Virus record (IMG/VR): IMGVR_UViG_3300045988_177154
Location: 64,001 to 128,000 of that record
DNA: 64,000 bases
Direction: 5' to 3' (one strand)
From: a virus
Part shown: piece by piece, positions 4,403-49,553 of the stretch
Numbering within the stretch: the stretch's first letter is position 1
Layout: each line of letters starts with the position of its first letter
The notes under the pieces: model-generated
The model's database searches: none
Seen by the model: only the letters and a program-made list of their open reading frames with translations
What the model was told of the DNA's origin: nothing
Made by a program: the position numbers and the translations under genes

Positions 4403-4525
4403 AGCGTTAAAATAAGCGATTGTGAGCTGTTTTTATTAAAAGTCGATACATTTATCGAAAATCAGTTTTGACTGTTTTAGCATTAACTATATGACGATAT
4501 AGCGATGTTCAAAATCAGTTTTAGG
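4403..4525 (+). repeat. R element copy 1 (~110-bp intergenic repeat)
   Basis: Core TCGATACATTTATCGAAAATCAGTTTTGACTGTTTTAG...TATATGACGATATAGCGA...TTCAAAATCAGT. Aligns with the copies at 18782, 27154, 41281 and, reverse-complemented, 49416 and 54841. Confidence 0.8.
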
Positions 4526-4564
4526 TATTGGAATGAGTTGTATTTTTGCTTTTCTTCTTTGATA

Positions 4565-6956: not shown

Positions 6957-6959
6957 TCT

Positions 6960-7165
6960 TTACCTCATTTCTACTTCGCAAATGAGCACTTCTTCACCAT
7001 CATCAAAATTAAAATCATCTTTATAGGGCAAGAATAAATAAGAATCTGTACTCTTATCGTAGTAGAATTGTGCTTTCATATTGAATAGGATAGTTAGTAA
7101 ATCCGTAATTTTTTGTTTCGATTCTTTTGGATTTTAAGTTCTGAATGATTAGTAATACCAATATT
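6960..7165 (-). pseudogene. truncated, frameshifted 3' copy of the small gene at 8795-9145
   Basis: The reverse complement aligns nt-for-nt with 8795-9001 (stop codon through NIGVTN...). There is a 1-nt deletion relative to the intact copy near 7095-7115. It begins exactly at the right end of the TnpB element. Confidence 0.65.
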
Positions 7166-7308
7166 GTTGCTTACATCTGTAACTTATTGTAATAATGAAT
7201 AAGTGAGTTGTAAGGTAATACCTCATGTAGAGGACGAACTCCTAATTCAACTTGAACCGTTGAATCAAGTACATTCGTTAGAAATGACACAATTTGACCA
7301 TTTCCTTT
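7166..7308 (-). ncRNA. predicted omega-RNA (reRNA) scaffold of TnpB element 1
   Basis: Overlaps the last ~137 nt of tnpB plus 5 nt. This exact interval is the part conserved (~80% by eye) in the non-coding stand-alone copy at 20353-20488. Confidence 0.55.
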
Positions 7309-8667
7309 AAGCTTATTTACTTTTTCCTTAATTTCTTTTTTATTTGATTTTGGTTTAACTCTTTTAGTCTTTGCCTTTTTTGGTAAAGATTTTTTGAGCT
7401 TAATATTAGTAGAACGAATCGCAATATTGATAGCAGCTAATAAATCTCTATCAATTTTACCAGTCGTAAATTCAATAGTTCTATCATTAACTACTCCTAT
7501 TTCTTTCGTTATTGGGTGCTCCTTACTAGTATTAAATGCAGAAACCTTTTTTACCTCAATTCCATACATAGTGGCTTTCTCTATAATTTTAGAATGAATT
7601 TGAGAATGATTCCATTTACCACCTTGTGAATTTAACCAAGATAAATCTTCAATATGAATTGTTTTACACTTCTGCTCTAATGCTAAATTTACAATTTCGT
7701 TTGACAAAAGCTTTGCTTGATAATCTTTTGTGTTAATAATTTTATTAGAAATATTTGAATAAAGATTTTTCCAAATTTCATATTTAGATTGATTTGTTAA
7801 CCTTAAAGCTTCATAAGATTTAAGTTTATCATATAAGATTTGTTTATTTTCATAAAGTTTATTGATTTTATATTCTGTTTCTTGGCTTCGTTTTGTGTTG
7901 ACAAATTCATTACTGAAATTACCTTTTCTATCAACAACAACAGAACTAAATAATTTAATTTTACCTATATCCACACCTAAGATTTTATCTTCTAACACAT
8001 AATCCCCCACTTCATATTCATAAGAGCAAATACCTATATATTGATTATCTCTTTTACGTTTAATAAATCTAGGCTTCGCAATTCTGCCTGTAAATCTTTC
8101 ATCTATACTACTTGGAAAGATTATTTCATATTCAATCCAATCTTTTTTGCTCACTTTTATTTCACAAATATTACCTTGTTTCATTCTGAATATTTGCTTT
8201 TCTGAAATAGTATAATCAAGATTGAATACAGCGCTTCGTGCTAATTCGGGTATGGAATTATTACGTTTAATATTGGCAATTCTACTTCTTGTTGGGTAAA
8301 GTTTTAATTTGTGTAATGAATTAAATAAATCTTCATTTATGTTAAAATCATTTTTAACTAATTGATTCCAAATGATGATTGCTTCTTGTTTTGACTTTAT
8401 TTCTCGTCTGATGTTTTCAAACAAGATATACGAGTGCCAGGTTTTATTATGCAACGGCCAGTCTTTTATTCGGAATTTAAGACTATCCCTCATATCCCTC
8501 CAAACATCGCCTCTGAGTTTAGATAAATCAATTTTATCCAAGAGAGCTCTTGTTTCATCATTAGAGAGAATAAAATTTAACTCATTTTGTAAGAAATCAT
8601 AAATAGGTATAAGTTCTGATGGCATATTTATATTAAAACTTTTCCAATGAACTTTTTTCTTTTTCAT
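7171..8667 (-). CDS. tnpB: TnpB-like RNA-guided nuclease (IS200/IS605 OrfB family), 498 aa
   Basis: RuvC-like motifs ILGVDIGKIK (D), KTIHIEDLSW (E) and DRDLLAAINIA (D). No CxxC zinc-finger cysteines between motifs II and III. No tnpA nearby. Own promoter TTGAAA-17-TATAAT upstream on the minus strand (~8705-8735). Confidence 0.85.
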   Translation of the reverse strand: MKKKKVHWKSFNINMPSELIPIYDFLQNELNFILSNDETRALLDKIDLSKLRGDVWRDMRDSLKFRIKDWPLHNKTWHSYILFENIRREIKSKQEAIIIWNQLVKNDFNINEDLFNSLHKLKLYPTRSRIANIKRNNSIPELARSAVFNLDYTISEKQIFRMKQGNICEIKVSKKDWIEYEIIFPSSIDERFTGRIAKPRFIKRKRDNQYIGICSYEYEVGDYVLEDKILGVDIGKIKLFSSVVVDRKGNFSNEFVNTKRSQETEYKINKLYENKQILYDKLKSYEALRLTNQSKYEIWKNLYSNISNKIINTKDYQAKLLSNEIVNLALEQKCKTIHIEDLSWLNSQGGKWNHSQIHSKIIEKATMYGIEVKKVSAFNTSKEHPITKEIGVVNDRTIEFTTGKIDRDLLAAINIAIRSTNIKLKKSLPKKAKTKRVKPKSNKKEIKEKVNKLKGNGQIVSFLTNVLDSTVQVELGVRPLHEVLPYNSLIHYYNKLQM

Positions 8668-8794
8668 TTTACTCCTTTTATGTTATTTATTGTTACTATT
8701 ATAACAAATCATCAGTTTATTTTCAATTAAAGTTAATCATAAAGTTATAATAATTTACAAGAAATATCTATAAAAATTATCTGCTTCTATTATT

Positions 8795-9145
8795 TTACCT
8801 CATAACAACTTCACAAATAATAACTTCTTCGCCATTATCAAAGTCAAAATCATCTTTGTATGGTAAGAATAAGTAAGAATCAGTACTATTATCGTAGTAA
8901 TATTGAGACTTCATATTGAATAGAATAATTAAGAGTTCTGTAATTTTATTCTTTGATTCATTTTGAATTTCAAGTTTGGATTGGTTTGTAACACCAATAT
9001 TATCAAAAGAGTAATTATAGATAGTAAAGTTAGAATGATGATTAACTTTATTTTTTAAGTATTCATAATTATCTTTATTGAAGTCTTTAATTTTAGATAG
9101 CGGAAAATTCAAGACTAAGTTTAATGTTTCTTCTTTAATTTTCAT
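8795..9145 (-). CDS. hypothetical small protein (intact paralog of pseudogene 6960-7165)
   Basis: Start set at the internal ATG 9145 (AAGAGGA RBS); overlaps the upstream gene's stop by 11 nt. 116 aa. Confidence 0.6.
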   Translation of the reverse strand: MKIKEETLNLVLNFPLSKIKDFNKDNYEYLKNKVNHHSNFTIYNYSFDNIGVTNQSKLEIQNESKNKITELLIILFNMKSQYYYDNSTDSYLFLPYKDDFDFDNGEEVIICEVVMR

Positions 9146-9749
9146 TATACCAATCCTCTTTAAAGTTATTTTCACCTTCACTAAATCTTACAGATTCAAA
9201 ATGTCCTTGAACGAGTTTTCTTACATAAAAATCATATTTATCCATAGGGAAGCTATTAACAGGTCGAACTACAAAACCTTCAATATCTTCAGTCAGATTA
9301 GCAGTAGCTTCTTTTACTACTTCATCAAATGTTCCAACCTTTGATAATTCTTTTACAATTGGGATTCCAAGTTCTTTAGCTCTTTTCTTAGTTGTTTCCC
9401 AATCTAAGATTAAATCATCTTCTTTAATTCCAAATAGCATATAATCAGATGGTAAATCATTATAAGGAACAGATTTTCTCCAATGAAGAAATTCTCCAAG
9501 TACAACTTCATTATCTTTTAATTTATCTTTAATTGGATAGTACCAATTGTTGATTGGATAAGTCCATTCTTTATTGTAATTATTGCCAGCTCTTGTAAAC
9601 CAAGTTTCTTTTCCTAAAGAAATATTAGAACCGTCCATTTTTTCAGTAGCAATTACTAAACCGTCATATCTATAATGATTTTTAAAGACATCATCATCTG
9701 TACCCTTTGACCCTTTCATATGAGGAGTTCTAGGAAATTTAAAAGTCAT
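9135..9749 (-). CDS. RNA ligase family protein (minimal nucleotidyltransferase domain)
   Basis: 204 aa. N-terminal FPRTPHMKGS and motif I ATEKMDGSN (KxDG), as in PF09414-type RNA ligases (from memory). Confidence 0.7.
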   Translation of the reverse strand: MTFKFPRTPHMKGSKGTDDDVFKNHYRYDGLVIATEKMDGSNISLGKETWFTRAGNNYNKEWTYPINNWYYPIKDKLKDNEVVLGEFLHWRKSVPYNDLPSDYMLFGIKEDDLILDWETTKKRAKELGIPIVKELSKVGTFDEVVKEATANLTEDIEGFVVRPVNSFPMDKYDFYVRKLVQGHFESVRFSEGENNFKEDWYNEN

Positions 9750-17797: not shown

Positions 17798-18781
17798 ATG
17801 ATTATAAAATGCTATTTGTTTTCAGATAGAACTAGACAATTAGGTCATACTTATTATTCATTAGGAATGGGAGATTATTTGTATTTTGAGCTTAGCTCAT
17901 ACCAAGATTATTTTCACATTGGTGACCCATTTGTTTACGAAGTAGAAGTTGATACAGACAAAATATTGTATTGTGATAGTGAAAGTGTACACTCTATTGA
18001 GTACAAGATAAGTAGAGTAATCAAATTTGAAGAATATATTTTTACGTTTGAGTTTCCAAAAGATGATTTAAAAGAATTACTTAATATACTTGATGGAAAT
18101 ATTGACAAAAATGAAATGATAGAATTTTATACTGCAATCATTAGTAAAGATGTTTACAAAGTAAATAGGTTTGAGCAATTAAAACTTTTTGCAATATTAA
18201 ATCAAACAAAATATGAGCTGCCAGAAGTAACAATAGAAAAAGAATTTCAAATGGATTACTATGTTAAGCTTTTAATTTATTACAATAAACCTTATCAAGC
18301 TATTTGTAAACATTCCGCCAAAATTTCTGGGTTTAGAAAAGAACTTAATAAGCAGAGAATGCGGGGAACTACTACTTTTGAAACAATTTCAGATGAAATC
18401 ACCGAAAGATTAGCTTATAATTATTTTTTAGATGAATATATACTAAATAGACAACTTACTCAAGAACAATTTGAAAGTTTATGTGAGTACTTCAAGTGGA
18501 ATACACATATTTTTAAATTTAGAATAAAACTTAGTTCAATTGCAGCTGGTTACAAAATTCTACCAGAACATAGAAGTCTTTTTTATCCTTTTGTGCTTTA
18601 TCATGGAATAGAAGATAATTTGGATATAATTGACCGTGAGAAAAAGCCTGATGAATTATTAAAGATTTTATTTAACTGCGGTTATAAATTTAAAAATGTT
18701 GATTATAGCGACATGCCTTCACATGATAAAATTACTGAAGCAAAAATCATCTTTCAAAAAGGATTTAAATATATAGAATAA
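17798..18781 (+). CDS. paralog family A protein (A6)
   Basis: Start moved to ATG 17798 (AAAGGAG RBS), giving MIIKCYLFS. PFVYEVEVDTD, KLFAILNQTKYELP, RQLTQEQFESLCEY, AAGYKILPEH. Confidence 0.7.
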   Translation: MIIKCYLFSDRTRQLGHTYYSLGMGDYLYFELSSYQDYFHIGDPFVYEVEVDTDKILYCDSESVHSIEYKISRVIKFEEYIFTFEFPKDDLKELLNILDGNIDKNEMIEFYTAIISKDVYKVNRFEQLKLFAILNQTKYELPEVTIEKEFQMDYYVKLLIYYNKPYQAICKHSAKISGFRKELNKQRMRGTTTFETISDEITERLAYNYFLDEYILNRQLTQEQFESLCEYFKWNTHIFKFRIKLSSIAAGYKILPEHRSLFYPFVLYHGIEDNLDIIDREKKPDELLKILFNCGYKFKNVDYSDMPSHDKITEAKIIFQKGFKYIE

Positions 18782-18892
18782 GCAACTCTAAGCTGTTTTA
18801 TTTTAAAGCCGATACATTTATCGAAAATCAGTTTTAACTGTTTTACTGTTGATTATATGACGATATAACGACATTCAAAATCAGTCTAAGCA
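18782..18892 (+). repeat. R element copy 2
   Basis: CTAAGCTGTTTTATTTTAAAGCCGATACATTTATCGAAAATCAGTTTTAACTGTTTTAC...TATATGACGATATAACGACATTCAAAATCAGT. Confidence 0.8.
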
Positions 18893-18925
18893 ATATGAAA
18901 ATTATAAAAAGAACAATAAAAATAT

Positions 18926-19409: not shown

Positions 19410-20089
19410 TGCTGAAAATTAAAGAAGGCCGAAAATATTATATTGTACTAGGTGCTGGTGGAACTGGGTCTTGGCTTGCACAATTCCTATCTAAAATTGA
19501 AGTTCCAGTATACCTTATTGATGGTGATGTGGTGGAACCTAAAAATGTTCTCCGTCAAAACTTTGTCAATGAAGAAGTAAATATGAGCAAAGCAGAAATT
19601 GCTAAAAAATGGGATTTTGCTTATGTGCCTGAATTTTTGAGTGATACTTCTATTATTGATGAAATTATTGCTCAAGAAGAAGGCACACCAGTACTTGTAG
19701 GTTGCTTAGATAACAATGCTACTCGTAAAATTGCTCAAGATGTATTCTACAATCCTAATTACAAAGACATTTTGTGGTTAGACGGTGGAAATGCAGAGCG
19801 ACATGGTCAAGCTTATGTTGCGGCTAAATATGATAATGAAGTTCATTATGAAAGTCCTATTGCTCTTGACCCAGCATTCCAAAACTTTGAAGGTGATGAA
19901 CGTAGACCAGACCAGATTTCATGTGCTGAACAATCTGAGTCTGCGCCACAAAACGTAACTGCAAACGTTACTAGTGCTACATTGTTATTTAATCTAATTA
20001 ACTTGATTGAAGAAAATGCTATGTTGCTTGGAAATAAATTTATGTTCCACACAAAATTATGTAGTATGACAACAACAGAAATTGTTTGA
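19409..20089 (+). CDS. ThiF/MoeB-family E1-like adenylyltransferase (small, PRTRC-ThiF-like)
   Basis: 226 aa. Rossmann loop YIVLGAGGTGSW and DGDVVEPKNVLRQNF (ThiF D.D.V..SNL.RQ signature). Confidence 0.75.
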   Translation: MLKIKEGRKYYIVLGAGGTGSWLAQFLSKIEVPVYLIDGDVVEPKNVLRQNFVNEEVNMSKAEIAKKWDFAYVPEFLSDTSIIDEIIAQEEGTPVLVGCLDNNATRKIAQDVFYNPNYKDILWLDGGNAERHGQAYVAAKYDNEVHYESPIALDPAFQNFEGDERRPDQISCAEQSESAPQNVTANVTSATLLFNLINLIEENAMLLGNKFMFHTKLCSMTTTEIV

Positions 20090-20114
20090 CAAAGTTTGAT
20101 TAACCTGATAAAAT
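20086..20114 (+). promoter_or_regulatory. sigma70-like promoter (extended -10)
   Basis: TTGACA 20086-20091, 17 nt, TGATAAAAT ending at 20114. Confidence 0.5.
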
Positions 20115-20145: not shown

Positions 20146-20310
20146 ATGGCTTTTAATCCTAGTCAGATTAAATTTGTTCAGTACAAAGGAGAAAAATTTC
20201 CCTTGAATGGAGCAGATTATAATAAAGTTCTTGATTTGCTGAAAATTCCAAAATCAGCAACAGTAACAATTGTAGGTAATACAATTATTGTTACCACTCG
20301 AAAAAGTTGA
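20146..20310 (+). CDS. short PRTRC_C-like protein (54 aa), paralog of the N-terminus of 20537-21070
   Basis: AAAGGAG RBS. QIKFVQYKGEKFPLNGADYNKVLDLLKIPKSATVTIVGNTIIVTTRKS aligns with EIVFQNNRFPLNGASVDDVLALLNVPDNAELAVEGTALLITEKSG. Below the ORF-track cutoff. Confidence 0.6.
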   Translation: MAFNPSQIKFVQYKGEKFPLNGADYNKVLDLLKIPKSATVTIVGNTIIVTTRKS

Positions 20311-20319
20311 TAAAAATAG

Positions 20320-20348
20320 TTGACAAACGCTAAATCACTTGTTATAAT
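20320..20348 (+). promoter_or_regulatory. sigma70 consensus promoter driving the stand-alone omega-RNA-like unit
   Basis: TTGACA 20320-20325, 17 nt, TATAAT 20343-20348. Homology to the tnpB 3' region starts 5 nt downstream. Confidence 0.65.
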
Positions 20349-20352
20349 GAAA

Positions 20353-20488
20353 TTAAAGGAAATAATCAAATTGTGTTATTTCTAATAGATGTACCATATT
20401 TAATCATTAAATTTGGAGTCTATCCTCTATTTGAGGTATTACCTTGCAACTCACTTATTTATTACAATAAGTTACAGGTGTAAGCAAC
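20353..20488 (+). ncRNA. stand-alone omega-RNA-like scaffold (copy of the tnpB-1 3' end / right end)
   Basis: Aligns over ~136 nt with the reverse complement of 7166-7308, for example GAGGTATTACCTT(G/A)CAACTCACTTATT(T/C)ATTACAATAAGTTACAG(G/A)TGTAAGCAAC. The frame equivalent to tnpB hits a stop after ~11 codons, so conservation is not protein-level. Confidence 0.7.
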
Positions 20489-20536
20489 AATGTAAATATA
20501 AAATAAAAAATAAAATTTTGAAAGGAGCTATTTAAA

Positions 20537-21070
20537 ATGGCTACAAATATTTATGAAAACGTTACGGAGATTGTTTTCCAAAACAATCGCTTCCCACTGA
20601 ATGGTGCTTCTGTTGATGATGTACTTGCATTGCTAAACGTCCCAGACAATGCAGAATTGGCAGTAGAAGGTACTGCTCTTCTAATTACAGAAAAATCTGG
20701 TACAAAGGGTGCTGACCCTGACCCAGAATTGATTGCTAAGTTGGCTGCTACTTTTGGTGGCGAAGCAATCAAAGGTGCTAGTGTGAAACTCCACCGTGCT
20801 TCAAATGGTAAATGGGTACCAAAAATCCCTGGTTTCACTCTTGATGAAGTTGCTTACTTGCTTGAAAAAGATGTAGAACTTTCAGAAGAAATGACTGATG
20901 AACAAGTTGAAATTGCTCGTCAAGCTCTTGAACAACGTGATGCTGAAATTGAAGCACAACGTGTTGCAGAAAAACAAGCTTTAGTAACAGAAGCTCTTGA
21001 AGGCTCAGGTCTTAACTTCACTTATGACCAATTGGTCTGTTTGCAAAAAGCTCTTGATGCTATTCGCTAA
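20537..21070 (+). CDS. PRTRC_C-like domain protein with acidic helical C-terminal half
   Basis: 177 aa. The N-terminal ~55 aa end in GTKG, as I recall for PRTRC system protein C. Visibly higher GC and GCT/GGT/CGT-rich codons than its neighbours. Confidence 0.55.
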   Translation: MATNIYENVTEIVFQNNRFPLNGASVDDVLALLNVPDNAELAVEGTALLITEKSGTKGADPDPELIAKLAATFGGEAIKGASVKLHRASNGKWVPKIPGFTLDEVAYLLEKDVELSEEMTDEQVEIARQALEQRDAEIEAQRVAEKQALVTEALEGSGLNFTYDQLVCLQKALDAIR

Positions 21071-21098
21071 AAACAACACACTATTTAACAAAAAAAGA

Positions 21099-21127
21099 AA
21101 ATCACACTTCAGTGTGATTTTTTTATT
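21099..21127 (+). terminator. rho-independent terminator
   Basis: AAATCACAC-TTCA-GTGTGATTT followed by TTTTATTTTT. Confidence 0.7.
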
Positions 21128-25692: not shown

Positions 25693-25777
25693 CTAAAAAA
25701 GCGCTGTTTTGCAAAGCGCTTTAGCTGTTGTTACTCAACTGTTTAGAGCATCTGTAAAATGGCGTAATGATAAAAAA

Positions 25778-26030
25778 CAGTATTTTACCGGTGATTATCA
25801 GTATTTTACCGGTTTTTTTGAGTATTTTTGGTCATTTTTTGAGTATTTTACCGGTTTTTTTGAGTATTTTTGGGCCGATTTTAGTATTTCATTACTGAGT
25901 ATTTTACCGGATTTTTAATTGCTTTGTTTTAGTTTTGAATGATTTCACTGAGTATTTTTGGTCTGTTTTTGAATTTTATATATGAGTATTTTTAGGCTTT
26001 TTCAAAATGCTTGATGAGTATTTTACCCTT
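25778..26030. repeat. iteron-like array, ten copies of (G/C)AGTATTTT(ACCGG/TGG)
   Basis: Copies start at 25778, 25799, 25820, 25841 and 25862 (exact 21-bp phasing), then 25882, 25897, 25950, 25984 and 26016. ORF 25709-25918 is just the repeat translated (FTGFFEYF...). Confidence 0.75.
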
Positions 26031-32690: not shown

Positions 32691-33590
32691 ATGAATAAAA
32701 TTAAATTATTAAGTGTTTTAACTTTATCTACCGTAGTTTTGGGTGCCTGTTCTTTGTTACCTAAATCAACAGAAAATAAAACTGAAACAACTGAACAAGT
32801 AACAACTACTAGTAAAGAAGATTCAGTTAAAGAGAAAGTCACAAAGGATGCTACAGTTCTTTTAGATTCTGTCTTAACTACAGATAATGCTAAATTTAAG
32901 AAAGTTTATGGGGAAACCTATGACAAATGGACTGATGCAATTATTGCCGTTCAAACTAGTGAAAAAATTAAGGAAGATGGTCTTACTCCAGCTTCTGAAT
33001 ATTCTGTACAATGGGTAAAAGATTTTCCAATTGAAACACCAGAAGAAACAATTTCTAACTTCCTTAAAGTAAGACGAAATCTCTTTCAGAAAATTGTAAA
33101 TTACAATATTAAAGATGTTGTAATTGATGATTCGGGAAATACTGCAACTGTTACATTTACATCTAAGAAGTTACATTCTCTTGGTTTAGCCTCATCAGTA
33201 AGAACAGTTCTAACTGAACTAATTGGGGGAATTGATAACCTCGGTAAATATAACCAAGCAGGTTCTTCTGAAACCGTTAAACGTTATCAAAACTTACTTT
33301 CTTATTGGATTTTCCGTCACTTATACAAACATGACTTTGCCATTTACTCTAATGTTGATGCTAACTTATCTCATGTTCCATTTACAAAAGGTGAATTTGA
33401 CACTGAGATTAAACTCACAAAGGATAAAGATGGCAATTGGGTGATTTCTCAAGATGATTATAAGACTTTGCTATCAGAATTGGTAGATAGAACTGAAGGC
33501 TATGATACAATAGACCGTTCAGGACTTCCTAATAAGAAAGCAACTGACTCATCTGAAACATCTACAGACAAAGATAAATCAAAAATTTAA
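32691..33590 (+). CDS. lipoprotein
   Basis: 299 aa. Signal peptide with lipobox LSTVVLGAC; Ser/Thr/Lys-rich linker; AGGAG RBS. Confidence 0.75.
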   Translation: MNKIKLLSVLTLSTVVLGACSLLPKSTENKTETTEQVTTTSKEDSVKEKVTKDATVLLDSVLTTDNAKFKKVYGETYDKWTDAIIAVQTSEKIKEDGLTPASEYSVQWVKDFPIETPEETISNFLKVRRNLFQKIVNYNIKDVVIDDSGNTATVTFTSKKLHSLGLASSVRTVLTELIGGIDNLGKYNQAGSSETVKRYQNLLSYWIFRHLYKHDFAIYSNVDANLSHVPFTKGEFDTEIKLTKDKDGNWVISQDDYKTLLSELVDRTEGYDTIDRSGLPNKKATDSSETSTDKDKSKI

Positions 33591-33641
33591 TTTAAAAATT
33601 ATAGAGAGTAGAACATCTTAAAAGATGTTTCCTCTCACTTT

Positions 33642-33730
33642 GGAGCGGTACCCAAGTGGCTAAAAGGGGGCGGTCTTGAAAACCGTTAGGTCGTTAATTC
33701 GGCGCGTGGGTTCGAATCCCACCCGCTCCG
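33642..33730 (+). tRNA. tRNA-Ser (UGA)
   Basis: Acceptor GGAGCGG/CCGCTCC, loop CTTGAAA, long variable arm, T-loop TTCGAAT. Confidence 0.85.
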
Positions 33731-34577
33731 TTATATAGGAAGCTTGTAGTTGTCTGTGACCATCAAGCACAAACCGGCGTTACTCAAAAGGGAACGTTTG
33801 TAGTAATGTGAAAAGCATTACGATAGGTTTGGTACTATAATTAAATATAAATCCAAAAGTGCATTTTTCCGTTGGTTTGATGCCTGGCGTTATACAGTTC
33901 GCTTGCAGGTGTAAGAATGAACGAATGATTCAGAAAATAACTTGTTATTGGACGGAATCATCACGTTGGGAATTGAAAACTTAGTCGTGATGCTATAGTA
34001 ATATAGCTATAAAACGGATATGAATGGCTGGTTCGCTAAAGACTAGAATAGGAAATCTAAACAGTCCTTACGGTTGTGTGGTAACAGTCCACACCAATTC
34101 ATAAAGGTTATTGTCGGCCAACAATAATCGAATTGTCGCATAATAAATCTTGACTATATTAAGTTGTAGGTGGTGTCCTACTTTATGGCGGAATAAGTTC
34201 ATCGGCTTAACGCATGATAGCATGACATTCAAAAGATGTTCTGAGAGGCGATTGCTTCAAAGTGTTATCAGTACTTATATAGGTAGAGATTAGTGCAAGT
34301 CTAGGATTCTAATACAGAGAACGAATTGCATATGAGTGTAATTCCAAGCTCAAGTGTTGAATGAGGTTGATGTCATGAAAGTGACTATAAGAATTTGCTA
34401 GACAAACGCTGTAAGAAATCCTCACGCAGTAAAAGATATGGTATCTTTGATGATAAAGATATTAAATTTACTGACCAAGATGTGGTGAACCTTTGGGGTA
34501 TCAATCCTCACTTCGTGACTGAATATGGACGTTTAATTGTAGTTGTCAGTAAAAACTAAATCTGGCCCTATATTTTA
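33731..34577 (+). ncRNA. candidate giant structured ncRNA (~847 nt; GOLLD/ROOL-class candidate)
   Basis: 847 nt flanked by tRNA-Ser and tRNA-Thr with no ORF of 60 aa or more on either strand. Markedly higher GC than coding DNA. Many short complementary segments. Confidence 0.45.
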
Positions 34578-34650
34578 GCTGGAGTAGCTCAATTGGTAGA
34601 GCACCCGCCTTGTAAGCGGAAGGTTGCAGGTTCGAAGCCTGTCTCCAGCA
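34578..34650 (+). tRNA. tRNA-Thr (UGU)
   Basis: Acceptor GCTGGAG/CTCCAGC, loop CTTGTAA, T-loop TTCGAAG. Confidence 0.85.
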
Positions 34651-35040
34651 TACTCTATAATAGATGTAATTATAAGAGTTCCTGAAAAATCAATGACTCA
34701 TGTAGGTTGTCATGAATTTACATGAATAGATTTCAATGTTGGTTTATCTGTAATCCGAAGCATGAATAAAACAGATTGTGGTCTTTGCTTTACCATATTA
34801 TTGTAAAGGTCAAAGCTTATCAGAAGTAATTCTGTAAAAAGTTGTTTCGATTGGAATTAGTGACTCCAATCTTTATCCATGAAATAACAAAAAATCATAA
34901 CTATTAAAGTTATGTGGCAGTTACGTTAGAGTATTGCTTGAAGTGTTGAAAATTAGAAGTTAGTGCCGAATTTCTAATCGTACTTCATTGATAGGGTTTT
35001 CGGTGGACACCGCGGGGCATAAGAAAACCGGCCAGTGAAA
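34651..35040 (+). ncRNA. ORF-free structured spacer sharing a motif block with 34255-34330
   Basis: GCTTGAAGTGTTG..ATTAGAAGTTAGTGCCGAATTTCTAATCGTAC (34935-34990) resembles GCTTCAAAGTGTT..AGATTAGTGCAAGTCTAGGATTCTAATAC (34255-34315). Confidence 0.35.
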
Positions 35041-35125
35041 TAAATGGTGTAATTAAAGAAATTCTAAGATATGGCTTATAATTTCAAAAATTACTTAAAT
35101 TTTTTAAAAAATTTTAATTTTGATA

Positions 35126-35153
35126 TTGACAATAACTCAAATTTTGATATAAT
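35126..35153 (+). promoter_or_regulatory. internal promoter of the RNA island
   Basis: TTGACA 35126-35131, 16 nt, TGATATAAT ending at 35153; long A/T UP-like tract upstream. Confidence 0.6.
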
Positions 35154-35171
35154 AGATACATAAAAACTTAT

Positions 35172-35243
35172 AGGTTCTTAGTTTACCGAGAAAAATAAGG
35201 GTCTCCAAAACCTTAGAAATCAGTGCAAGTCTGATAGAGCCTG
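35172..35243 (+). tRNA. tRNA-Trp (CCA), non-canonical D and T loops
   Basis: Acceptor AGGTTCT/AGAGCCT, D stem GTTT/AAAT, anticodon stem-loop AGGGT-CTCCAAA-ACCTT, T arm ATCAG-TGCAAGT-CTGAT (the T-loop lacks the TTC consensus). Confidence 0.55.
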
Positions 35244-35287
35244 TTACAAATAAAAATTATTAAAAGAAAAAAGGAAGGTACGTAATC

Positions 35288-35410
35288 ATGACAACATTTA
35301 CAGTCGCACAAGATATTCATATGATTATTGATATGCAGCCGGCAGCCGGTACTGTAGTGCTTCGTCAAGCAAAAAATACCTTACAATCTAATAGTAGGAT
35401 TATAAGTTAG
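35288..35410 (+). CDS. possible 39-aa leader-type ORF
   Basis: AAGGAAGG RBS 8 nt upstream of the ATG. MTTFTVAQDIHMIIDMQPAAGTVVLRQAKNTLQSNSRIIS. Its 3' end overlaps the first copy of an 11-nt repeat that takes part in alternative hairpins. Confidence 0.3.
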   Translation: MTTFTVAQDIHMIIDMQPAAGTVVLRQAKNTLQSNSRIIS

Positions 35411-35439
35411 CATTCAGCTCAGCTTAATAAATCAAACTA

Positions 35440-35469
35440 AGATTGTAAGAAATTCCTTACAATCTTTTT
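35440..35469 (+). terminator. terminator hairpin with a competing upstream partner (attenuator-like)
   Basis: AGATTGTAAG (35440-35449) pairs with CTTACAATCT (within 35455-35465) followed by TTTTC. An identical CCTTACAATCT at 35379-35389 could pair with the same segment instead. Confidence 0.45.
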
Positions 35470-35479
35470 CTAGCTATAT

Positions 35480-35550
35480 GGGGCATTAGTTTAATGGGAA
35501 AACACTACCCTTGCAAGGTAACGTTAGGAGTTCGATTCTCCTATGCTCCA
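35480..35550 (+). tRNA. tRNA-Ala (UGC)
   Basis: Acceptor GGGGCAT/ATGCTCC with G3-U70, loop CTTGCAA, T arm AGGAG-TTCGATT-CTCCT. Confidence 0.8.
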
Positions 35551-35575
35551 TTTCCATTAAGGAAATCATCATTAA

Positions 35576-35646
35576 GTGGACATAGTATAAGGGTAGTATG
35601 ACGGGCTTCCAACCCGTTGGTGCGAGTTCGAATCTCGTTGTCCATA
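35576..35646 (+). tRNA. tRNA-Gly (UCC)
   Basis: Acceptor GTGGACA/TGTCCAT, anticodon stem-loop ACGGG-CTTCCAA-CCCGT, T-loop TTCGAAT. Confidence 0.8.
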
Positions 35647-35649
35647 TAA

Positions 35650-35720
35650 GGCGAGGTAGTGAAAAGGTATAACGTTGGGCTCATAACCCAAAATTGTCGG
35701 TTCGAATCCGACCTTCGCAA
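35650..35720 (+). tRNA. tRNA-Met (CAU), initiator-like features
   Basis: Loop CTCATAA. Three G-C pairs closing the anticodon stem (TTGGG/CCCAA). Position 1-72 unpaired (G x A). Poorly formed D stem. Confidence 0.7.
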
Positions 35721-35730
35721 TTTTAAATTA

Positions 35731-35804
35731 CTAGGTGTAGCGCAGTTTGGTAGCGCACGTGCTTTGGGAGCACGGGGCCGCAGGTTCGAATCCTGTCACC
35801 TAGA
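35731..35804 (+). tRNA. tRNA-Pro (UGG)
   Basis: Acceptor CTAGGTG/CACCTAG, anticodon stem-loop CGTGC-TTTGGGA-GCACG. Confidence 0.85.
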
Positions 35805-35845
35805 TAAAGCAATGATGAATTGCTTAAAGGAAAGGTTTTTATATT

Positions 35846-36025
35846 ATGACTAATTTGAAAAAATATATCTTATCTTTGATTATAGCATTTGTAATTACCA
35901 TTCCTATTGCAAGTGTTATTCTTACAATTATTTATGATACAGTAATCTTCTTGATTATCTCAACAATTATTTATTTTATTGTAATGACTTTAGTTATTAA
36001 AGGATTTAATTATGATAAAGATTAG
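35846..36025 (+). CDS. small membrane protein (59 aa, two hydrophobic segments) embedded in the tRNA array
   Basis: AAAGGAAAGG RBS. MTNLKKYILSLIIAFVITIPIASVILTIIYDTVIFLIISTIIYFIVMTLVIKGFNYDKD. The stop abuts tRNA-Ile. Confidence 0.5.
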   Translation: MTNLKKYILSLIIAFVITIPIASVILTIIYDTVIFLIISTIIYFIVMTLVIKGFNYDKD

Positions 36026-36096
36026 TGTCCGATGGTGAAATGGTATCACAAGCTGCTGATAACGGCTAGTTACAAGTTCAATTCTTGTTCGGACAA
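36026..36096 (+). tRNA. tRNA-Ile (GAU)
   Basis: Acceptor TGTCCGA/TCGGACA, anticodon stem-loop AGCTG-CTGATAA-CGGCT, T arm ACAAG-TTCAATT-CTTGT. Confidence 0.8.
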
Positions 36097-36107
36097 TACA
36101 ATATAAA

Positions 36108-36179
36108 TGCTTCTTAGTTTAATGGATATGACGCCGGACTACGAATCCGGAGATAAAGGTTCAATTCCTTTAGGAGCAA
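36108..36179 (+). tRNA. tRNA-Arg (ACG)
   Basis: Acceptor TGCTTCT/AGGAGCA, anticodon stem-loop CCGGA-CTACGAA-TCCGG. Confidence 0.8.
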
Positions 36180-36184
36180 TATAT

Positions 36185-36258
36185 TGGAGTATAGACAAAT
36201 TGGTAAAGTCACTGGACTTTGAATCCAGGTTTTGCTGGTTCGAATCCAGCTACTCCAG
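36185..36258 (+). tRNA. tRNA-Gln (UUG)
   Basis: Acceptor TGGAGTA/TACTCCA, anticodon stem-loop CTGGA-CTTTGAA-TCCAG. Confidence 0.85.
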
Positions 36259-36270
36259 TTAATAAAATAT

Positions 36271-36343
36271 GGCTTCGTAGCAAAGTGGTTATTGCGCTGG
36301 CTTGTCACGCCAGAGGTCGGGGGTTCGATTCCCCTCGGGGCCG
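36271..36343 (+). tRNA. tRNA-Asp (GUC)
   Basis: Acceptor GGCTTCG/CGGGGCC, anticodon stem-loop CTGGC-TTGTCAC-GCCAG. Confidence 0.85.
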
Positions 36344-36755
36344 TAACCCTGCCTAGGGGTAATACATAGTAGTAATACTATGAAAGGAAGTTTGACAAAC
36401 TTTCGCCTGTCTTATGATGGGTTAACTAGGCAATACATTTTCAAGTTGCTCAAAAGGCACATTATATAAGCATAATCAGTGAGAAACCTTGAGATAGTTT
36501 CAGGCATGGAATTGCTAACTTCTTGTGCTAGCTAATGGAAGTTAGATGTGCGAAATATAAGGAGAATGTAAGGATTAACAGTTAGAGTCTTAGCGGATAA
36601 TAGCGTAATCCATAACAATATTCATATGGTTGGCAAATCATTGTAAGTATTGTTGAATTTCAAAATCTTAGCGGATAGAGAAGTAATAAATTGGCGAGGA
36701 GCATTCCTTAGAACAAAATTTTATGGAACTCCGAGGCATAGCTCGTCAATGTCAA
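36344..36755 (+). ncRNA. ORF-free structured spacer (5' part of a possible ~836-nt RNA with a nested tRNA-like element)
   Basis: 412 nt with no ORF. Internal repeat ATCTTAGCGGATA at ~36585 and ~36665. Hairpins such as CTAACTTC...GAAGTTAG. Confidence 0.35.
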
Positions 36756-36829
36756 AGGTGATTAGCTCATTTGGTAGAGCATATATTTTGAGGAATATAG
36801 GGTAATGGGTTCGATTCCCATATTACTAA
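36756..36829 (+). tRNA. tRNA-like element with an 8-nt anticodon loop (identity undetermined)
   Basis: Canonical D arm GCTCATTTGGTAGAGC and T arm ATGGG-TTCGATT-CCCAT. Anticodon stem TATAT/ATATA encloses TTTGAGGA (8 nt). Acceptor AGGTGAT/ATTACTA is weak (1-72 mismatch, two G-U pairs). Confidence 0.5.
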
Positions 36830-37179
36830 CGAAGCGAAAGTCTATGTCAGACTTAGAAAAAAAGAGCATTAACTCCATACAGATTTATTCTGAATATGGA
36901 AACAATAGAAGCTCGCAAGCAACTATTGTTTTAATCCAATGATTTCCGCAAACTTGAGCCGTACAACTTAGGTCTAACGAAATCGGGTTGAGTATCGCTA
37001 AGTCTTAATGGTAAAAGTATCGCCAGCAGGTTTGTAACTGCGAAAGATGAATGCTTAAGAGATACGATTAGGAATAATCGTGGATAAACAACTAAACAAT
37101 AAGGTTGTTAAAGACTCTTATTTAACGCTATAATCTCAGGCCGTTAACTTCTTATAGGGGAAGAGAAATCCTATTTTAT
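36830..37179 (+). ncRNA. ORF-free structured spacer (3' part of the possible ~836-nt RNA)
   Basis: 350 nt with no ORF. GNRA-type hairpins (GCGAAAG, CTGCGAAAGATG) and several 6-9 bp complementary pairs. Confidence 0.35.
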
Positions 37180-37251
37180 GCTCTGTTAGCTCAGGGGGAG
37201 AGCACTAGTCTTACAAACTAGATGTCATTGGTTCAAATCCAATACAGAGCA
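37180..37251 (+). tRNA. tRNA-Val (UAC)
   Basis: Acceptor GCTCTGT/ACAGAGC, anticodon stem-loop CTAGT-CTTACAA-ACTAG. Confidence 0.85.
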
Positions 37252-37306
37252 TTTCCTACATAAAACGCAAAATCGTTTATTGTAGTGCTTACGATGTAAG
37301 CATCTA

Positions 37307-37389
37307 GCGCCCGTGGTGGAATGGCAGACACGCTAGGCTTAGACCCTAGTGTCCGAAAGGACGTGAGAGTTCGAGTCTCTCCGAGTGCA
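37307..37389 (+). tRNA. tRNA-Leu (UAG)
   Basis: Acceptor GCGCCCG/CGAGTGC (one C x A mismatch), anticodon stem-loop CTAGG-CTTAGAC-CCTAG, long variable arm. Confidence 0.75.
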
Positions 37390-37390
37390 T

Positions 37391-37464
37391 CTTGTCTTAG
37401 TGTTAATAGGTTAGCATATCTCACTGTGACTGAGAAGGTACGGGTTCGAGTCCCGTAGGCATGA
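37391..37464 (+). tRNA. tRNA-His (GUG)
   Basis: Acceptor CTTGTCT/AGGCATG (one U x U mismatch), anticodon stem-loop TCTCA-CTGTGAC-TGAGA, T arm ACGGG-TTCGAGT-CCCGT. No encoded G-1. Confidence 0.65.
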
Positions 37465-40771: not shown

Positions 40772-41278
40772 ATGAATCATATTGTAGAAGAAGAAAAGAA
40801 AGATATTTTAGCGCCTCATATTGAAGATGGATATAAAGTTATCTATCCTAATAAAAACGTAAAAATTGAATTAGTAAATATTTATAAAAAACGGGCTTCT
40901 CAGCATATTAAAATTGGGTTAATTTGTTCAGGCCTGAAGTTATGGGATAGACTTTCTACTTATAAAAAAGATTTATTCTTGAAGCCGGGTAACTTTGAAA
41001 AGGGGGAGAATAAATTAACAATTAGTAGAGATGGAGCAGAAGCTACATTTAATTTAGAAAGAAATATTTTTATTTATGATTTAAATAATAAATATTTTGG
41101 CTCAGAAGCAAAGTTCCCCGAAAAGATTGAATATATTTTACTTAAGCAAAATTTCAACACAACTCATTTGCGAATTATAATAGATGATAAGTTTAAAACA
41201 AAAGCTGCTCAAAAACATTACCGAATCCAAAATGAAAAGAGAAAACTTGAAGAAGAATTAGACTTGAACCTAAGTTAG
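40772..41278 (+). CDS. paralog family B protein (B4)
   Basis: Start moved to ATG 40772 to give the family N-terminus MNHIVEEE. DGYKVIYPN, KIEYILLK...LRIIIDDKF. Confidence 0.65.
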   Translation: MNHIVEEEKKDILAPHIEDGYKVIYPNKNVKIELVNIYKKRASQHIKIGLICSGLKLWDRLSTYKKDLFLKPGNFEKGENKLTISRDGAEATFNLERNIFIYDLNNKYFGSEAKFPEKIEYILLKQNFNTTHLRIIIDDKFKTKAAQKHYRIQNEKRKLEEELDLNLS

Positions 41279-41280
41279 TA

Positions 41281-41375
41281 TAAGCGTTTCTAAACTGTTT
41301 TTTCGTAAAGTCGATACATTTATCGAAAATCAGTTTTAACAGTTTTAGAATTGCTTATATGACGATATAATAACC
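41281..41375 (+). repeat. R element copy 5
   Basis: TAAGCGTTTCTAAACTGTTTTTTCGTAAAGTCGATACATTTATCGAAAATCAGTTTTAACAGTTTTAG...TATATGACGATATAATAAC. Confidence 0.8.
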
Positions 41376-41403
41376 CTTAAAATGAAAGTGAGTAATTGTA
41401 AAA

Positions 41404-48927: not shown

Positions 48928-49416
48928 ATGACAAAAAATTTACAAATGACTCAAGCAGAGTATCATTCATTAGAAGAAAAACTTGAAGAACTAAAATTAG
49001 TTAAACGACCTGAAATTATCGAGCGTATCAAAATTGCTCGTAGTTACGGTGACTTATCTGAAAACTCTGAATATGAATCAGCTAAAGATGAGCAAGCATT
49101 CCTTGATACAGAAATTGCTAAATTAGAAGAACGACTACGCTCTGCCCAAATTATTAACATTACTGACACTCAAGAAAATATTGTAAGTATTGGACGAACA
49201 GTAAGAGTATTAGAATCAGATACCAATAAGGAAGTAACTTACAAAATCGTGGGTATTTCTCATGCTGATGCTTTTGAAATGAAGATTACTCAAGAGTCAC
49301 CAATCGGGAAGGCTTTGTTCGGACATACTATTGGAGATACAGTTCATGTATATACTCCAGTACCACAAGAAAGCTATGATTTAACTATTCTTGATGTAAC
49401 TTACTCAAAAGACTAA
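48928..49416 (+). CDS. greA: transcription elongation factor GreA
   Basis: 162 aa. LEEL...RPEIIERIKIARSYGDLSENSEYESAKDEQAFLDTEIAKLEERLRSAQII is the GreA coiled-coil signature with the acidic tip DLSEN.EY. Confidence 0.85.
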   Translation: MTKNLQMTQAEYHSLEEKLEELKLVKRPEIIERIKIARSYGDLSENSEYESAKDEQAFLDTEIAKLEERLRSAQIINITDTQENIVSIGRTVRVLESDTNKEVTYKIVGISHADAFEMKITQESPIGKALFGHTIGDTVHVYTPVPQESYDLTILDVTYSKD

Positions 49417-49525: not shown

Positions 49526-49553
49526 TTTTCCATATAGAAAAGGAGTTTAAAAA

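What the first reader, a model, noticed from the sequence alone, without database searches (positions are those of the whole stretch)
20320..20511. Stand-alone, promoter-driven omega-RNA-like gene 13 kb from its tnpB, aimed into the 5' UTR of a PRTRC_C-like gene
**What the sequence shows**
- 20353-20488 aligns over ~136 nt (about 80% identical by eye) with the reverse complement of 7166-7308. That interval is the last ~137 nt of tnpB-1 plus its right end, where IS605-family omega/reRNA scaffolds are encoded.
- The copy is not coding: the tnpB-equivalent frame stops after ~11 codons.
- A perfect TTGACA-17-TATAAT promoter sits so that transcription would start within a few nt of where homology begins.
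- Upstream of that point the two loci are unrelated.
- Homology ends at the same ...GTAAGCAAC right end. It is followed by a different 20-mer (AATGTAAATATAAAATAAAA, 20489-20508) lying ~30 nt upstream of the RBS of the gene at 20537.

**Interpretation**
- This is what a trans-encoded second guide RNA for the 498-aa TnpB would look like: a natural two-guide arrangement, or an exapted regulator in the manner of TldR-type TnpB derivatives.
- The unit also sits between two paralogous copies of the same gene start (20146 and 20537), echoing the paralog-flanked architecture at the tnpB locus.
Basis: partly seen in the sequence, partly recalled or inferred. Interest (0 to 1): 0.88.

Follow-up and report, generated by a model that had tools for sequence, protein, structure and literature searches.

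The report
Guide-RNA-only mini transposon in phage promoter
The flagged sequence is a 143-base mobile fragment carrying only the guide-RNA scaffold of a phage TnpB transposon; it has landed right after the TATAAT box of a gene's own promoter, so it is a known kind of element (a protein-less IS605 derivative) in an unusual, well-documented setting.

Summary
The homology is real: window 20355-20491 (+) matches the 3' end and right end of tnpB (7163-7308, -) at 81% (E 9e-35). Both copies fold into the same four-helix RNA.

It is not a purpose-built gene with its own promoter. Of related ~300-kb phage contigs, 20 carry the same TTGACA-17-TATAAT promoter joined directly to GTAAATATAAAATAAAA. Only 4, including this window, have 143 nt (20349-20491) inserted exactly after TATAAT, with no target duplication.

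The same scaffold-only unit sits at three other loci in relatives, always after ATAAT. Two of those copies keep the transposon left end, whose own promoter is fused to the scaffold. All nine junctions examined show ATAAT, not TTGAT, next to the element, so ATAAT is the inferred TAM. The "guide" is simply the flanking 5' UTR, and it matches the empty allele.

Scaffold helices are kept by compensatory changes: 9 pairs overall and 4 among the minis. TnpB keeps its RuvC D-E-D residues.

Best reading: a non-autonomous, omega-RNA-only IS200/IS605 derivative. It is read from the captured promoter and probably used in trans by TnpB to cut empty alleles (homing or retention).

A TldR-like regulator is not supported. 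Expression and TnpB binding are untested.

The parts
20320..20348 (+). Native sigma-70-type promoter of the 177-aa gene: TTGACA, 17 nt, TG-extended TATAAT. Its last 5 nt (ATAAT, 20344-20348) are the inferred TAM after which the element inserted.
   Evidence: 12/12 consensus match. The same promoter is present and conserved in 20 relatives without the insertion.
20349..20491 (+). Inserted 143-nt mini-element ('Form B', with no left end). It has a 6-nt leader GAAATT and a 137-nt omega-RNA scaffold (20355-20491) ending GTAAGCAACAAT. The junction is ambiguous by 3 nt because the TAM and the element both end in AAT.
   Evidence: Filled versus empty alleles. CM hit of 159.8 bits. 81% identity to the tnpB right end. 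Four-helix fold, z -2.6. Covariation.
20492..20511 (+). Guide-equivalent flank GTAAATATAAAATAAAAAAT. This is the native 5' UTR of the 177-aa gene and matches empty alleles, where TATAAT precedes it.
   Evidence: Every copy of the element diverges exactly after ...CAACAAT. Empty alleles read TATAAT|GTAAATATAAAATAAAA.
20537..21070 (+). 177-aa gene of unknown function whose leader now contains the element. RBS AGGAG at about 20524-20528. The only terminator follows the gene, at 21095-21124.
   Evidence: ORF list. No terminator between scaffold and gene. No family hit.
20146..20310 (+). 54-aa paralog of the N-terminus of the 177-aa protein, with its own promoter at 20086-20114. It is present in filled and empty genomes alike, so it is not part of the element.
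7171..8667 (-). tnpB, 498 aa. RuvC D233, E340 and D408 are present. All four zinc-finger cysteines of the TNB domain are absent. Presumed protein partner.
   Evidence: Pfam Cas12f1-like_TNB 35.6 bits (cut-off 26.3). NCBIfam guided_TnpB E 2.9e-14 but below its cut-off. PDB Cas12f/TnpB alignments. Residue positions.
7163..7308 (-). Cognate omega-RNA scaffold (146 nt). It overlaps the last 46 codons of tnpB and ends at the right end ...GTAAGCAACAAT.
   Evidence: CM 152.9 bits. Fold z -3.3 with the same architecture as the mini copy.
8668..8788 (-). Left end of the full element (AGAAGCAG...), with its own promoter TTGAAA-17-TATAAT and the tnpB 5' UTR. It is preceded by the ATAAT motif at 8789-8793.
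   Evidence: Homology to L001-L004, which have different flanks, begins here.
7143..7162 (-). Guide-equivalent flank of the full element, ATTGGTATTACTAATCATTC. It matches the empty allele of the upstream 116/128-aa gene (GATAAT|ATTGGTATTACTAATCAATC in L050).

Best explanation
**What it is**
- Window 20349-20491 is a non-autonomous, protein-less derivative of the phage's IS200/IS605-type tnpB element.
- It retains only the omega-RNA scaffold, i.e. the right end.
- It lies immediately 3' of ATAAT, the motif found next to the element at every junction (the inferred TAM). Here that motif is the -10 hexamer of the native promoter of the 177-aa gene.

**How it most likely works**
- Shown: the insertion is precise, has no target duplication, and is polymorphic among near-identical phages.
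- Shown: the same unit occurs at other loci, and its RNA helices are maintained by compensatory substitutions.
- Inferred: RNA polymerase starting about 7 nt after TATAAT makes a transcript that begins at the scaffold's 5' edge and runs through the scaffold into the 5' UTR and gene.
- Inferred: the resident TnpB, whose RuvC triad is intact, binds this scaffold in trans and uses the adjacent 16-20 nt (GUAAAUAUAAAAUAAA...) as guide.
- Inferred: in the carrier genome that sequence is preceded by ACAAT rather than ATAAT and would be spared. In an empty allele (TATAAT+GTAAATATAAAATAAA, as in L006 and L008-L017) it would be cut. Recombinational repair from the filled genome would then copy the insert, giving homing or retention during co-infection or after excision.

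**Likely origin**
- The parent is probably a 'Form A' mini-element: about 103 nt of left end with its own promoter, fused to the scaffold, as seen in L032 and L033.
- The left end may have been lost by deletion between the 10-nt direct repeat TTGTTATAAT, which occurs in both the native -10 region and the left end's internal -10 region.

**Confidence by step**
- Mobile scaffold-only insertion at an ATAAT motif: about 0.9.
- Acts as a trans guide for TnpB: about 0.5.
For: **Homology and structure**
- Homology is real and unique in the window.
- The two window copies fold independently into the same four-helix architecture.
- On 12 distinct scaffolds the consensus has 43 pairs, 98.8% of cells paired and 9 pairs with changes on both sides. 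Slid controls give about 40% paired and 0-2 such pairs.
- Among the 7 mini copies alone, 4 pairs have double changes and 97.7% of cells are paired.

**Exact filled and empty pairs**
- Locus 2: window, L010, L015 and L030 are filled; L006-L009, L011-L014, L016-L018, L034, L036-L042 and L044 are empty.
- L033 is filled versus L003 empty (TGTTATAAT|GAACTC). L031 is filled versus this window empty at 34661|34662.
- There is no target-site duplication at any of these.

**ATAAT at all nine junctions**
- Four sites carry full elements, two carry Form A, two carry Form B, and one is the internal site of gene A.

**Relation to the full element**
- Form A copies carry a left end homologous to that of the full element, with the promoter abutting the scaffold.
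- The full element is also polymorphic: L047, L048, L050 and L051 are empty at its locus.

**Protein partner and transcription**
- TnpB RuvC D-E-D residues are present.
- No terminator lies between scaffold and gene.

**Precedent**
- PATE-like elements that encode omega-RNAs needing TnpB in trans are noted by Meers et al. (PMC10055086).
Against: - There are no expression, processing or binding data of any kind.
- The mini scaffold is only about 81% identical to the resident TnpB's own scaffold and lacks 9 nt of it, so cross-recognition is assumed, not shown.
- The filled allele is in the minority (4 of 24 places sampled, and the sample is not random), which a strong drive would not predict.
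- The window copy lacks a left end, so it probably cannot be excised or transposed by a Y1 transposase.
- No TnpA was found in the window or fetched loci. The probes were weak (sequences recalled from memory), and only 64 kb of a genome of about 320 kb was seen.
- With three mini sub-lineages, covariation within the minis is suggestive only: 134 of 500 shuffles reach the observed number of double-change pairs.
- Some compensatory changes could date from when the scaffold was still part of a full tnpB gene. The indels are multiples of 3 and the old frame is still open.
- TnpB has lost its zinc-finger cysteines, so its nuclease activity is not guaranteed.
Confidence: 0.6

Rival explanations
1. 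Inert relic. The fragment is a solo right end left by decay or deletion of a once complete tnpB element. It is tolerated in the 5' leader because transcription reads through it, and it has no present function as a guide RNA.
For: - There is no left end and no coding capacity.
- It occurs at low frequency among relatives.
- It is 19% diverged from the resident scaffold.
- A simple route by direct-repeat deletion exists.
- The in-frame indels and the still-open old reading frame suggest that much of its divergence arose while it was coding.
Against: - All helices are still intact (97.7-98.8% of cells paired) despite about 20% sequence divergence among the mini sub-lineages, with compensatory pairs.
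- The same scaffold-only unit, with the same 5' boundary, occurs at four loci and in three sub-lineages. This is not expected for independent random decay.
- In Form A copies the left-end promoter is fused exactly to the scaffold start.
Confidence: 0.25
2. Exapted cis or trans regulator, TldR-like or leader-RNA-like. The scaffold in the 5' leader, with or without bound TnpB, controls expression of the 177-aa gene. Alternatively the TnpB-guide complex represses the promoter of the same gene in related genomes.
For: - The scaffold is transcribed as part of the gene's leader and no terminator intervenes.
- The guide's cognate target (TATAAT plus the first transcribed bases) overlaps a promoter, as TldR targets do (PMC10705468).
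- TnpB has lost its zinc-finger cysteines.
Against: - The RuvC D-E-D triad is intact, including in relatives.
- The insertion is polymorphic and absent from most close relatives and from all distant ones, so the gene functions without it.
- The same unit sits at unrelated loci with unrelated flanks.
- In the carrier genome the guide-matching DNA lacks the ATAAT motif: ACAAT precedes it.
Confidence: 0.1
3. Chance similarity or a coincidental AT-rich repeat with no relation to the tnpB element.
For: The genome is very AT-rich and full of similar promoters.
Against: - blastn E 8.8e-35 and CM E 1.8e-35.
- The 3' boundary is identical in all copies.
- The presence/absence polymorphism is precise.
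Confidence: 0.01

Closest known systems
PATE-like non-autonomous IS200/IS605 elements that encode omega-RNAs (Geobacillus stearothermophilus; Meers et al. 2023, PMC10055086)
   Same: - It has no protein gene and retains the right end with the omega-RNA scaffold.
- It depends on a TnpB encoded elsewhere.
- It inserts 3' of a TAM-like motif without duplication.
- It is multi-copy and polymorphic.
   Different: - The window copy has no left end at all, whereas PATEs have both ends. Its relatives ('Form A') keep a left end whose promoter is fused directly to the scaffold.
- It lives in a ~300-kb phage lineage, not a bacterial chromosome.
- The inferred TAM (ATAAT) coincides with the -10 hexamer, so several copies sit right behind promoters.
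- No TnpA was identified.
[quoted passage not shown]
   Same: - The scaffold overlaps the tnpB 3' end.
- The guide is the DNA flanking the right end.
- The guide's target is the TAM-plus-flank 'donor joint', i.e. the empty site.
- The RuvC D-E-D triad is present.
   Different: - The inferred TAM is ATAAT rather than TTGAT.
- TnpB is 498 aa and has no zinc-finger cysteines.
- In this copy, guide and nuclease are encoded 13 kb apart.
TldR, nuclease-dead TnpB-like repressors (Wiegand et al., PMC10705468)
   Same: - Both occur in a phage or prophage context.
- The guide's cognate target overlaps a promoter -10 element next to a TAM-like motif.
   Different: - TldRs have deteriorated RuvC sites, fixed gene associations and conserved guide-target pairs.
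- Here the triad is intact, the unit is mobile and polymorphic, and the guide is an accident of the insertion site.
Cas-less mini-CRISPR arrays and solitary repeat units in viruses, and homing-endonuclease marker exclusion in T-even phages (from my own knowledge, not checked here)
   Same: - A virus carries only the guide or targeting part of a system.
- The natural targets are closely related competitor genomes that lack the insert.
   Different: - The chemistry is different (omega-RNA with TnpB).
- Here the guide is created by the insertion itself rather than being acquired.

Membership tests
IS200/IS605-family element (TnpB type) | Insertion immediately 3' of a short conserved motif (TAM), with no target-site duplication | tested here: met
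   Three exact filled/empty pairs. ATAAT is found at all 9 junctions.
IS200/IS605-family element (TnpB type) | The right end encodes a structured omega-RNA scaffold that overlaps the tnpB 3' end and is followed by a variable flank, the guide | tested here: met
   Alignment of 12 distinct scaffolds gives 43 pairs, 9 of them with compensatory changes. All copies diverge right after CAACAAT. Expression was not tested.
IS200/IS605-family element (TnpB type) | Y1 (HUH) TnpA transposase available for mobilisation, with subterminal hairpins in the left and right ends | tested here: inconclusive
   tblastn with IS608 and IS200 TnpA sequences written from memory found nothing in the window or loci. Only 64 kb of the genome was seen. 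No convincing covarying hairpin was seen in the left end.
PATE / MITE-like non-autonomous IS605 derivative | No protein-coding gene | tested here: met
   143 nt in total. About 455 codons of tnpB are missing, and the residual frame has no RBS or start.
PATE / MITE-like non-autonomous IS605 derivative | Both transposon ends (left and right) retained | tested here: not met
   In the window copy, DNA upstream of TATAAT is the native promoter shared with empty alleles, so no left end is present. The related copies L032 and L033 do keep a left end of about 103 nt.
PATE / MITE-like non-autonomous IS605 derivative | Several copies at different loci, with presence/absence polymorphism | tested here: met
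   Four loci among relatives: locus 2, L031, L032 and L033. The window itself holds only one mini copy.
TnpB RNA-guided nuclease (the protein at 7171-8667) | RuvC catalytic triad D-E-D | tested here: met
   D233, E340 and D408 align to Cas12f/TnpB structures.
TnpB RNA-guided nuclease (the protein at 7171-8667) | Family profile match above the curated cut-off | tested here: inconclusive
   Pfam Cas12f1-like_TNB scores 35.6 against a cut-off of 26.3. NCBIfam guided_TnpB scores 53.1 against a cut-off of 100.
TnpB RNA-guided nuclease (the protein at 7171-8667) | CCCC zinc finger in the TNB domain | tested here: not met
   The segment TSKEHPITKEIGVVNDRTIEFTTGK aligns to the Cas12f segment TSQRCSRCG...CCTKCG and contains no cysteine.
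TldR (nuclease-dead TnpB-like repressor) system | Deteriorated RuvC active site | tested here: not met
   The triad is intact in the window protein and in P0001 and P0060.
TldR (nuclease-dead TnpB-like repressor) system | Fixed association with a non-transposon gene and a conserved guide-target pair | tested here: not met
   The insertion is absent from 20 of 24 related places. The same scaffold carries unrelated flanks elsewhere.
Any curated Rfam RNA family | Match at or near the gathering score | tested here: not met
   Nothing above noise at either locus.
   No Pfam or NCBIfam hit. Only the ThiF-like neighbour weakly matches PRTRC_ThiF: 49 bits against a cut-off of 145.

The most novel reading that the evidence does not exclude
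The scaffold-only units may be guide-RNA-only selfish elements that run a gene drive within a population of ~300-kb phages.
- Their inferred TAM (ATAAT) mimics the -10 hexamer, so an insertion tends to capture a promoter, or the element brings its own.
- This would guarantee expression of an omega-RNA whose guide is, by construction, specific for competitor genomes that lack the insert.
- The TnpB encoded elsewhere in the genome would then cut co-infecting relatives at each empty site, either converting them or excluding them.
- The arrangement would work as a multi-guide weapon between phages and as a drive.
- Single SNPs in the TAM-proximal bases of some empty alleles (L018, L044) would then be escape mutations.
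Probability: 0.3. Interest if true: 0.7.

Novelty: new variant of a known kind. Interest (0 to 1): 0.5.

Why it matters
**What it could be used for**
- If the trans-guide reading holds, this phage lineage is a natural system in which TnpB works with several separately encoded omega-RNAs.
- The filled and empty alleles of each target site are already available in public metagenomes.
- That would make RNA-guided homing between co-infecting viruses directly testable.
- It would also give a minimal natural design: promoter, 137-nt scaffold, guide.
- It would supply an AT-rich TAM (ATAAT) for a TnpB that lacks a zinc finger.

**A general caution for annotation**
- Because the inferred TAM looks like a -10 box, such insertions sit behind perfect promoters and can be mistaken for dedicated small-RNA genes.

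**If the copy is inert**
- The finding is ordinary transposon debris.

Tried and rejected
- **TTGAT as TAM.** Rejected. TTGAT at 20308-20312 and at 9002-9006 is fortuitous; all nine junctions share ATAAT directly next to the element.
- **A promoter evolved for the RNA.** Rejected. The promoter is present and conserved in all empty alleles.
- **The paralog-flanked architecture as part of the unit.** Rejected for locus 2, because both paralogs are present in empty genomes. At the tnpB locus the partial copy downstream of the right end is the displaced 3' part of gene A. The flank begins exactly at an internal GATAAT| site of that gene and is of the L050 allele type. An insertion into gene A followed by unequal recombination with a copy inserted after the stop codon would explain it. 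This is inferred, not shown.
- **Phage reference records (INPHARED).** No DNA or protein match.
- **GTDB genomes.** No TnpB relative and no scaffold match, so there is no host clue.
- **Rfam.** No family matches.
- **TnpA.** tblastn with remembered IS608 and IS200 sequences found nothing, but this is a weak test.
- **Further diverged scaffold copies in the window.** None found.
- **Extra IMG/VR pattern scans.** They added only full-length copies (L056) and chance hits.
- **Off-target sites for the guide in the window.** The best match has 1 mismatch at 32057-32072 (-) and lacks the ATAAT motif.
- **Co-occurrence of mini copies with tnpB on the same contigs.** Could not be tested, because only stretches of at most 10 kb can be fetched.

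Full report
**1. The observation**

The similarity is real. MAFFT, the repeat finder and blastn all align window 20353-20491 (+) with the reverse complement of 7163-7310, at 81% over 148 columns and E 8.8e-35. A covariance model built later from 12 distinct relatives scores only these two places in the 64-kb window: 159.8 and 152.9 bits, against 16 bits for the next hit.

The promoter is a 12/12 consensus match: TTGACA at 20320, 17 nt, then TG-extended TATAAT ending at 20348. No terminator lies between the scaffold and the 177-aa gene; the only one is at 21095-21124.

Three details of the finding need correcting.
- The shared end is ...GTAAGCAACAAT. Every copy everywhere has the AAT and diverges after it.
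- The tnpB-equivalent frame is open to the same stop codon. It does not stop after 11 codons.
- The 'PRTRC_C-like' label has no support from Pfam or NCBIfam.

The paralogy between the 54-aa ORF and the 177-aa protein is real.

**2. The partner gene**

ORF 7171-8667 (-) encodes a 498-aa protein.
- It matches Pfam Cas12f1-like_TNB above the cut-off.
- It matches NCBIfam guided_TnpB below the cut-off.
- It matches Cas12f/TnpB structures.
- RuvC D233, E340 and D408 are present. The four zinc-finger cysteines are not.

It has 378 relatives with E at or below 0.001. The best 120 are 85-91% identical and are mostly on metagenome contigs of up to about 350 kb. None is in the reference phage collection or in GTDB genomes.

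The window also carries 22 tRNAs and a GOLLD RNA. The source is therefore an uncultured, AT-rich, ~300-kb phage-like genome.

**3. The full element and its boundaries**

In four IMG/VR contigs the same tnpB unit sits in unrelated flanks. Homology to the window covers exactly 8796-7163.
- The left end begins AGAAGCAG... and is always preceded by ATAAT.
- It contains its own promoter (TTGAWA-17-TATAAT).
- The right end is ...GTAAGCAACAAT.

At the window's tnpB locus, relatives with the identical SfsA-like neighbour lack the element. In those relatives gene A (116 aa) abuts SfsA.

The DNA flanking the window's right end (ATTGGTATTACTAATC...) equals the part of gene A that follows an internal GATAAT in the L050-type allele. 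That is the classical TAM-plus-flank relation. The duplicated gene-A 3' part downstream of tnpB is thus a displaced fragment. I infer an unequal crossover between two nearby insertions.

**4. What locus 2 is**

Relatives carrying the identical or a similar 177-aa protein were fetched.
- In 20 places the intergenic region reads ...TAGTTGACAAAC(N)TTGTTATAAT|GTAAATATAAAATAAAAAATAAAATTTTGAAAGGAG..., an 83-95-nt spacer between the two genes.
- This includes lineages with only 64-78% protein identity.
- Only the window, L010, L015 and L030 have an extra 143 nt exactly between TATAAT and GTAAAT.

The promoter is therefore ancestral and belongs to the gene. The scaffold is a later, precise insertion without target duplication, and the '20-mer' is the gene's ordinary 5' UTR.

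**5. The unit is mobile**

A metagenome scan with a motif specific to the mini scaffold found the same scaffold-only unit at three other loci.
- L031: downstream of a tRNA. The window holds the exact empty site at 34661|34662, TATAAT|AGATGTAATTATAAGAGTTC.
- L033: L003 holds the exact empty site, TGTTATAAT|GAACTC.
- L032: no empty counterpart was retrieved.

In L032 and L033 the unit is preceded by about 103 nt homologous to the left end of the full element. That left end's own TATAAT abuts the scaffold ('Form A', about 250 nt). At locus 2 and in L031 only the scaffold is present ('Form B').

Three sub-lineages occur: alpha (window, L010, L030, L032), beta (L015, L033) and gamma (L031). Alpha and beta each occur in both forms.

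The native -10 region at locus 2 and the internal -10 region of the left end share the 10-mer TTGTTATAAT. A Form A insertion followed by deletion between these repeats would yield Form B. This is inferred. An independently mobile Form B, or gene conversion between copies, cannot be excluded.

All nine junctions examined have ATAAT 5' of the element, which argues for ATAAT as the TAM rather than TTGAT.

**6. Is the scaffold maintained?**

Both window copies fold on their own into the same four helices, with z-scores of -2.6 and -3.3.
- On 12 distinct scaffolds RNAalifold gives 43 pairs. 98.8% of cells are paired and 9 pairs have changes on both sides. Slid-partner controls give about 40% paired and 0-2 such pairs.
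- Within the 7 minis alone, 4 pairs show double changes and 97.7% of cells are paired. With three sub-lineages this is only suggestive.

One caveat applies. The two indels that distinguish minis from full copies are 6 and 3 nt, and the old reading frame is still open. Part of the divergence may therefore predate loss of the gene.

No Rfam family matches.

**7. Mechanism**

By analogy with established IS605 biology, TnpB with its omega-RNA cuts the TAM-plus-flank donor joint and recombination restores the element (Karvelis 2021, PMC8612924; Meers 2023, PMC10055086). The most likely role is a trans-acting omega-RNA.
- Transcription from the captured promoter would start at the scaffold's 5' edge.
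- TnpB, encoded 13 kb away, would bind the scaffold.
- The guide GUAAAUAUAAAAUAAA would direct cleavage of empty alleles (TATAAT+target).
- The carrier's own copy, preceded by ACAAT, would be spared.

All steps after 'is inserted and structurally conserved' are inferred. Meers et al. already note that PATEs often encode omega-RNAs that must be used in trans by TnpB encoded in other elements, so the principle is known.

A TldR-like regulator is unlikely (PMC10705468), because the triad is intact and the unit is mobile and polymorphic. An inert relic remains a serious rival.

**8. Novelty and score**

The kind is known: a non-autonomous IS200/IS605 derivative carrying an omega-RNA. The variant features are these.
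- A left-end-less copy in a gene leader.
- Sister copies in which the element's promoter is fused exactly to the scaffold.
- An ATAAT motif (the inferred TAM) that coincides with the -10 hexamer.
- A phage population with several live filled/empty sites.
- A TnpB partner without a zinc finger.

I rate the finding as moderately interesting (0.5), and higher if trans-guided cutting between phages is demonstrated.

Noticed in passing
window 34657-34681: TATAAT|AGATGTAATTATAAGAGTTC, just 3' of the tRNA at 34578-34650, is the exact empty site of a scaffold-only mini-element that is present in the related contig L031 (gamma sub-lineage). The window is therefore 'filled' at one site and 'empty' at another.
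   Followed up: yes
window 6959-7162 (-): A decayed partial copy (78% identical, frameshifted) of the 3' part of the 116/128-aa gene at 8795-9181. It starts exactly at the right end of the tnpB element. It matches the L050-type allele of that gene, while the intact upstream copy is L047-like. Relatives without tnpB have the gene abutting the SfsA-like gene.
   Followed up: partly
L019-L028 (relatives; TnpB P0060): A tnpB copy 88% identical to the window's has no left end. Its ATG overlaps the stop of an upstream gene with faint HTH/sigma-r4-like Pfam hits. Its scaffold ends GTGAGAAACAAT directly at the ATG of a signal-peptide-like ORF. The arrangement is the same in 10 places and D-E-D is intact. 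It could be a fixed or domesticated copy.
   Followed up: partly
L056 and L002 (same 315-kb IMG/VR contig): One phage genome carries at least two full tnpB copies. The right end of the L056 copy abuts the RBS (AAGGAGG) of the next gene.
   Followed up: no
L011 1-1024 and L034 1-345: A different OrfB_IS605-type TnpB (370 or 418 aa) lies upstream of the small paralog gene in some relatives, where other relatives have the ThiF-like gene. Its RNA does not match the scaffold model. The region may be an insertion hot spot.
   Followed up: no
L018 and L044, intergenic region upstream of the 177-aa gene: Two otherwise near-identical empty alleles carry single SNPs within the first 6 nt after TATAAT: GTATAT and GTAAAC instead of GTAAAT. 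This is where a TnpB seed would lie. They could be escape variants, but the sample is far too small to say.
   Followed up: no
window 4408-4533, 18774-18899, 27156-27281, 41276-41401 (+); 49398-49528, 54833-54946 (-): A dispersed intergenic repeat family of about 110-130 nt (67-87% identity). Its invariant cores include AAGTCGATACATTTATCGAAAA and TGACGATATA. It is also present in L003. It is unrelated to the omega-RNA scaffold and its function is unknown.
   Followed up: partly
window 36689-37142 and 30479-37464: A GOLLD RNA (156 bits, above the gathering score) with a tRNA hit inside it, embedded in an array of about 21 tRNA genes. One more tRNA lies at 63145-63218.
   Followed up: no
window 25774-25980: Tandem 21-nt repeats (TTTTACCGGT/TTTTTGGTC...GAGTATTT units) upstream of the gene at 26104. 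They look like iterons or a binding-site array.
   Followed up: no
window 7171-8667 (-), residues 379-408: The TnpB TNB segment has no cysteines where Cas12f and TnpB have the CCCC zinc finger, yet the RuvC triad is kept. Two relatives whose sequences were read (P0001, P0060) show the same.
   Followed up: partly
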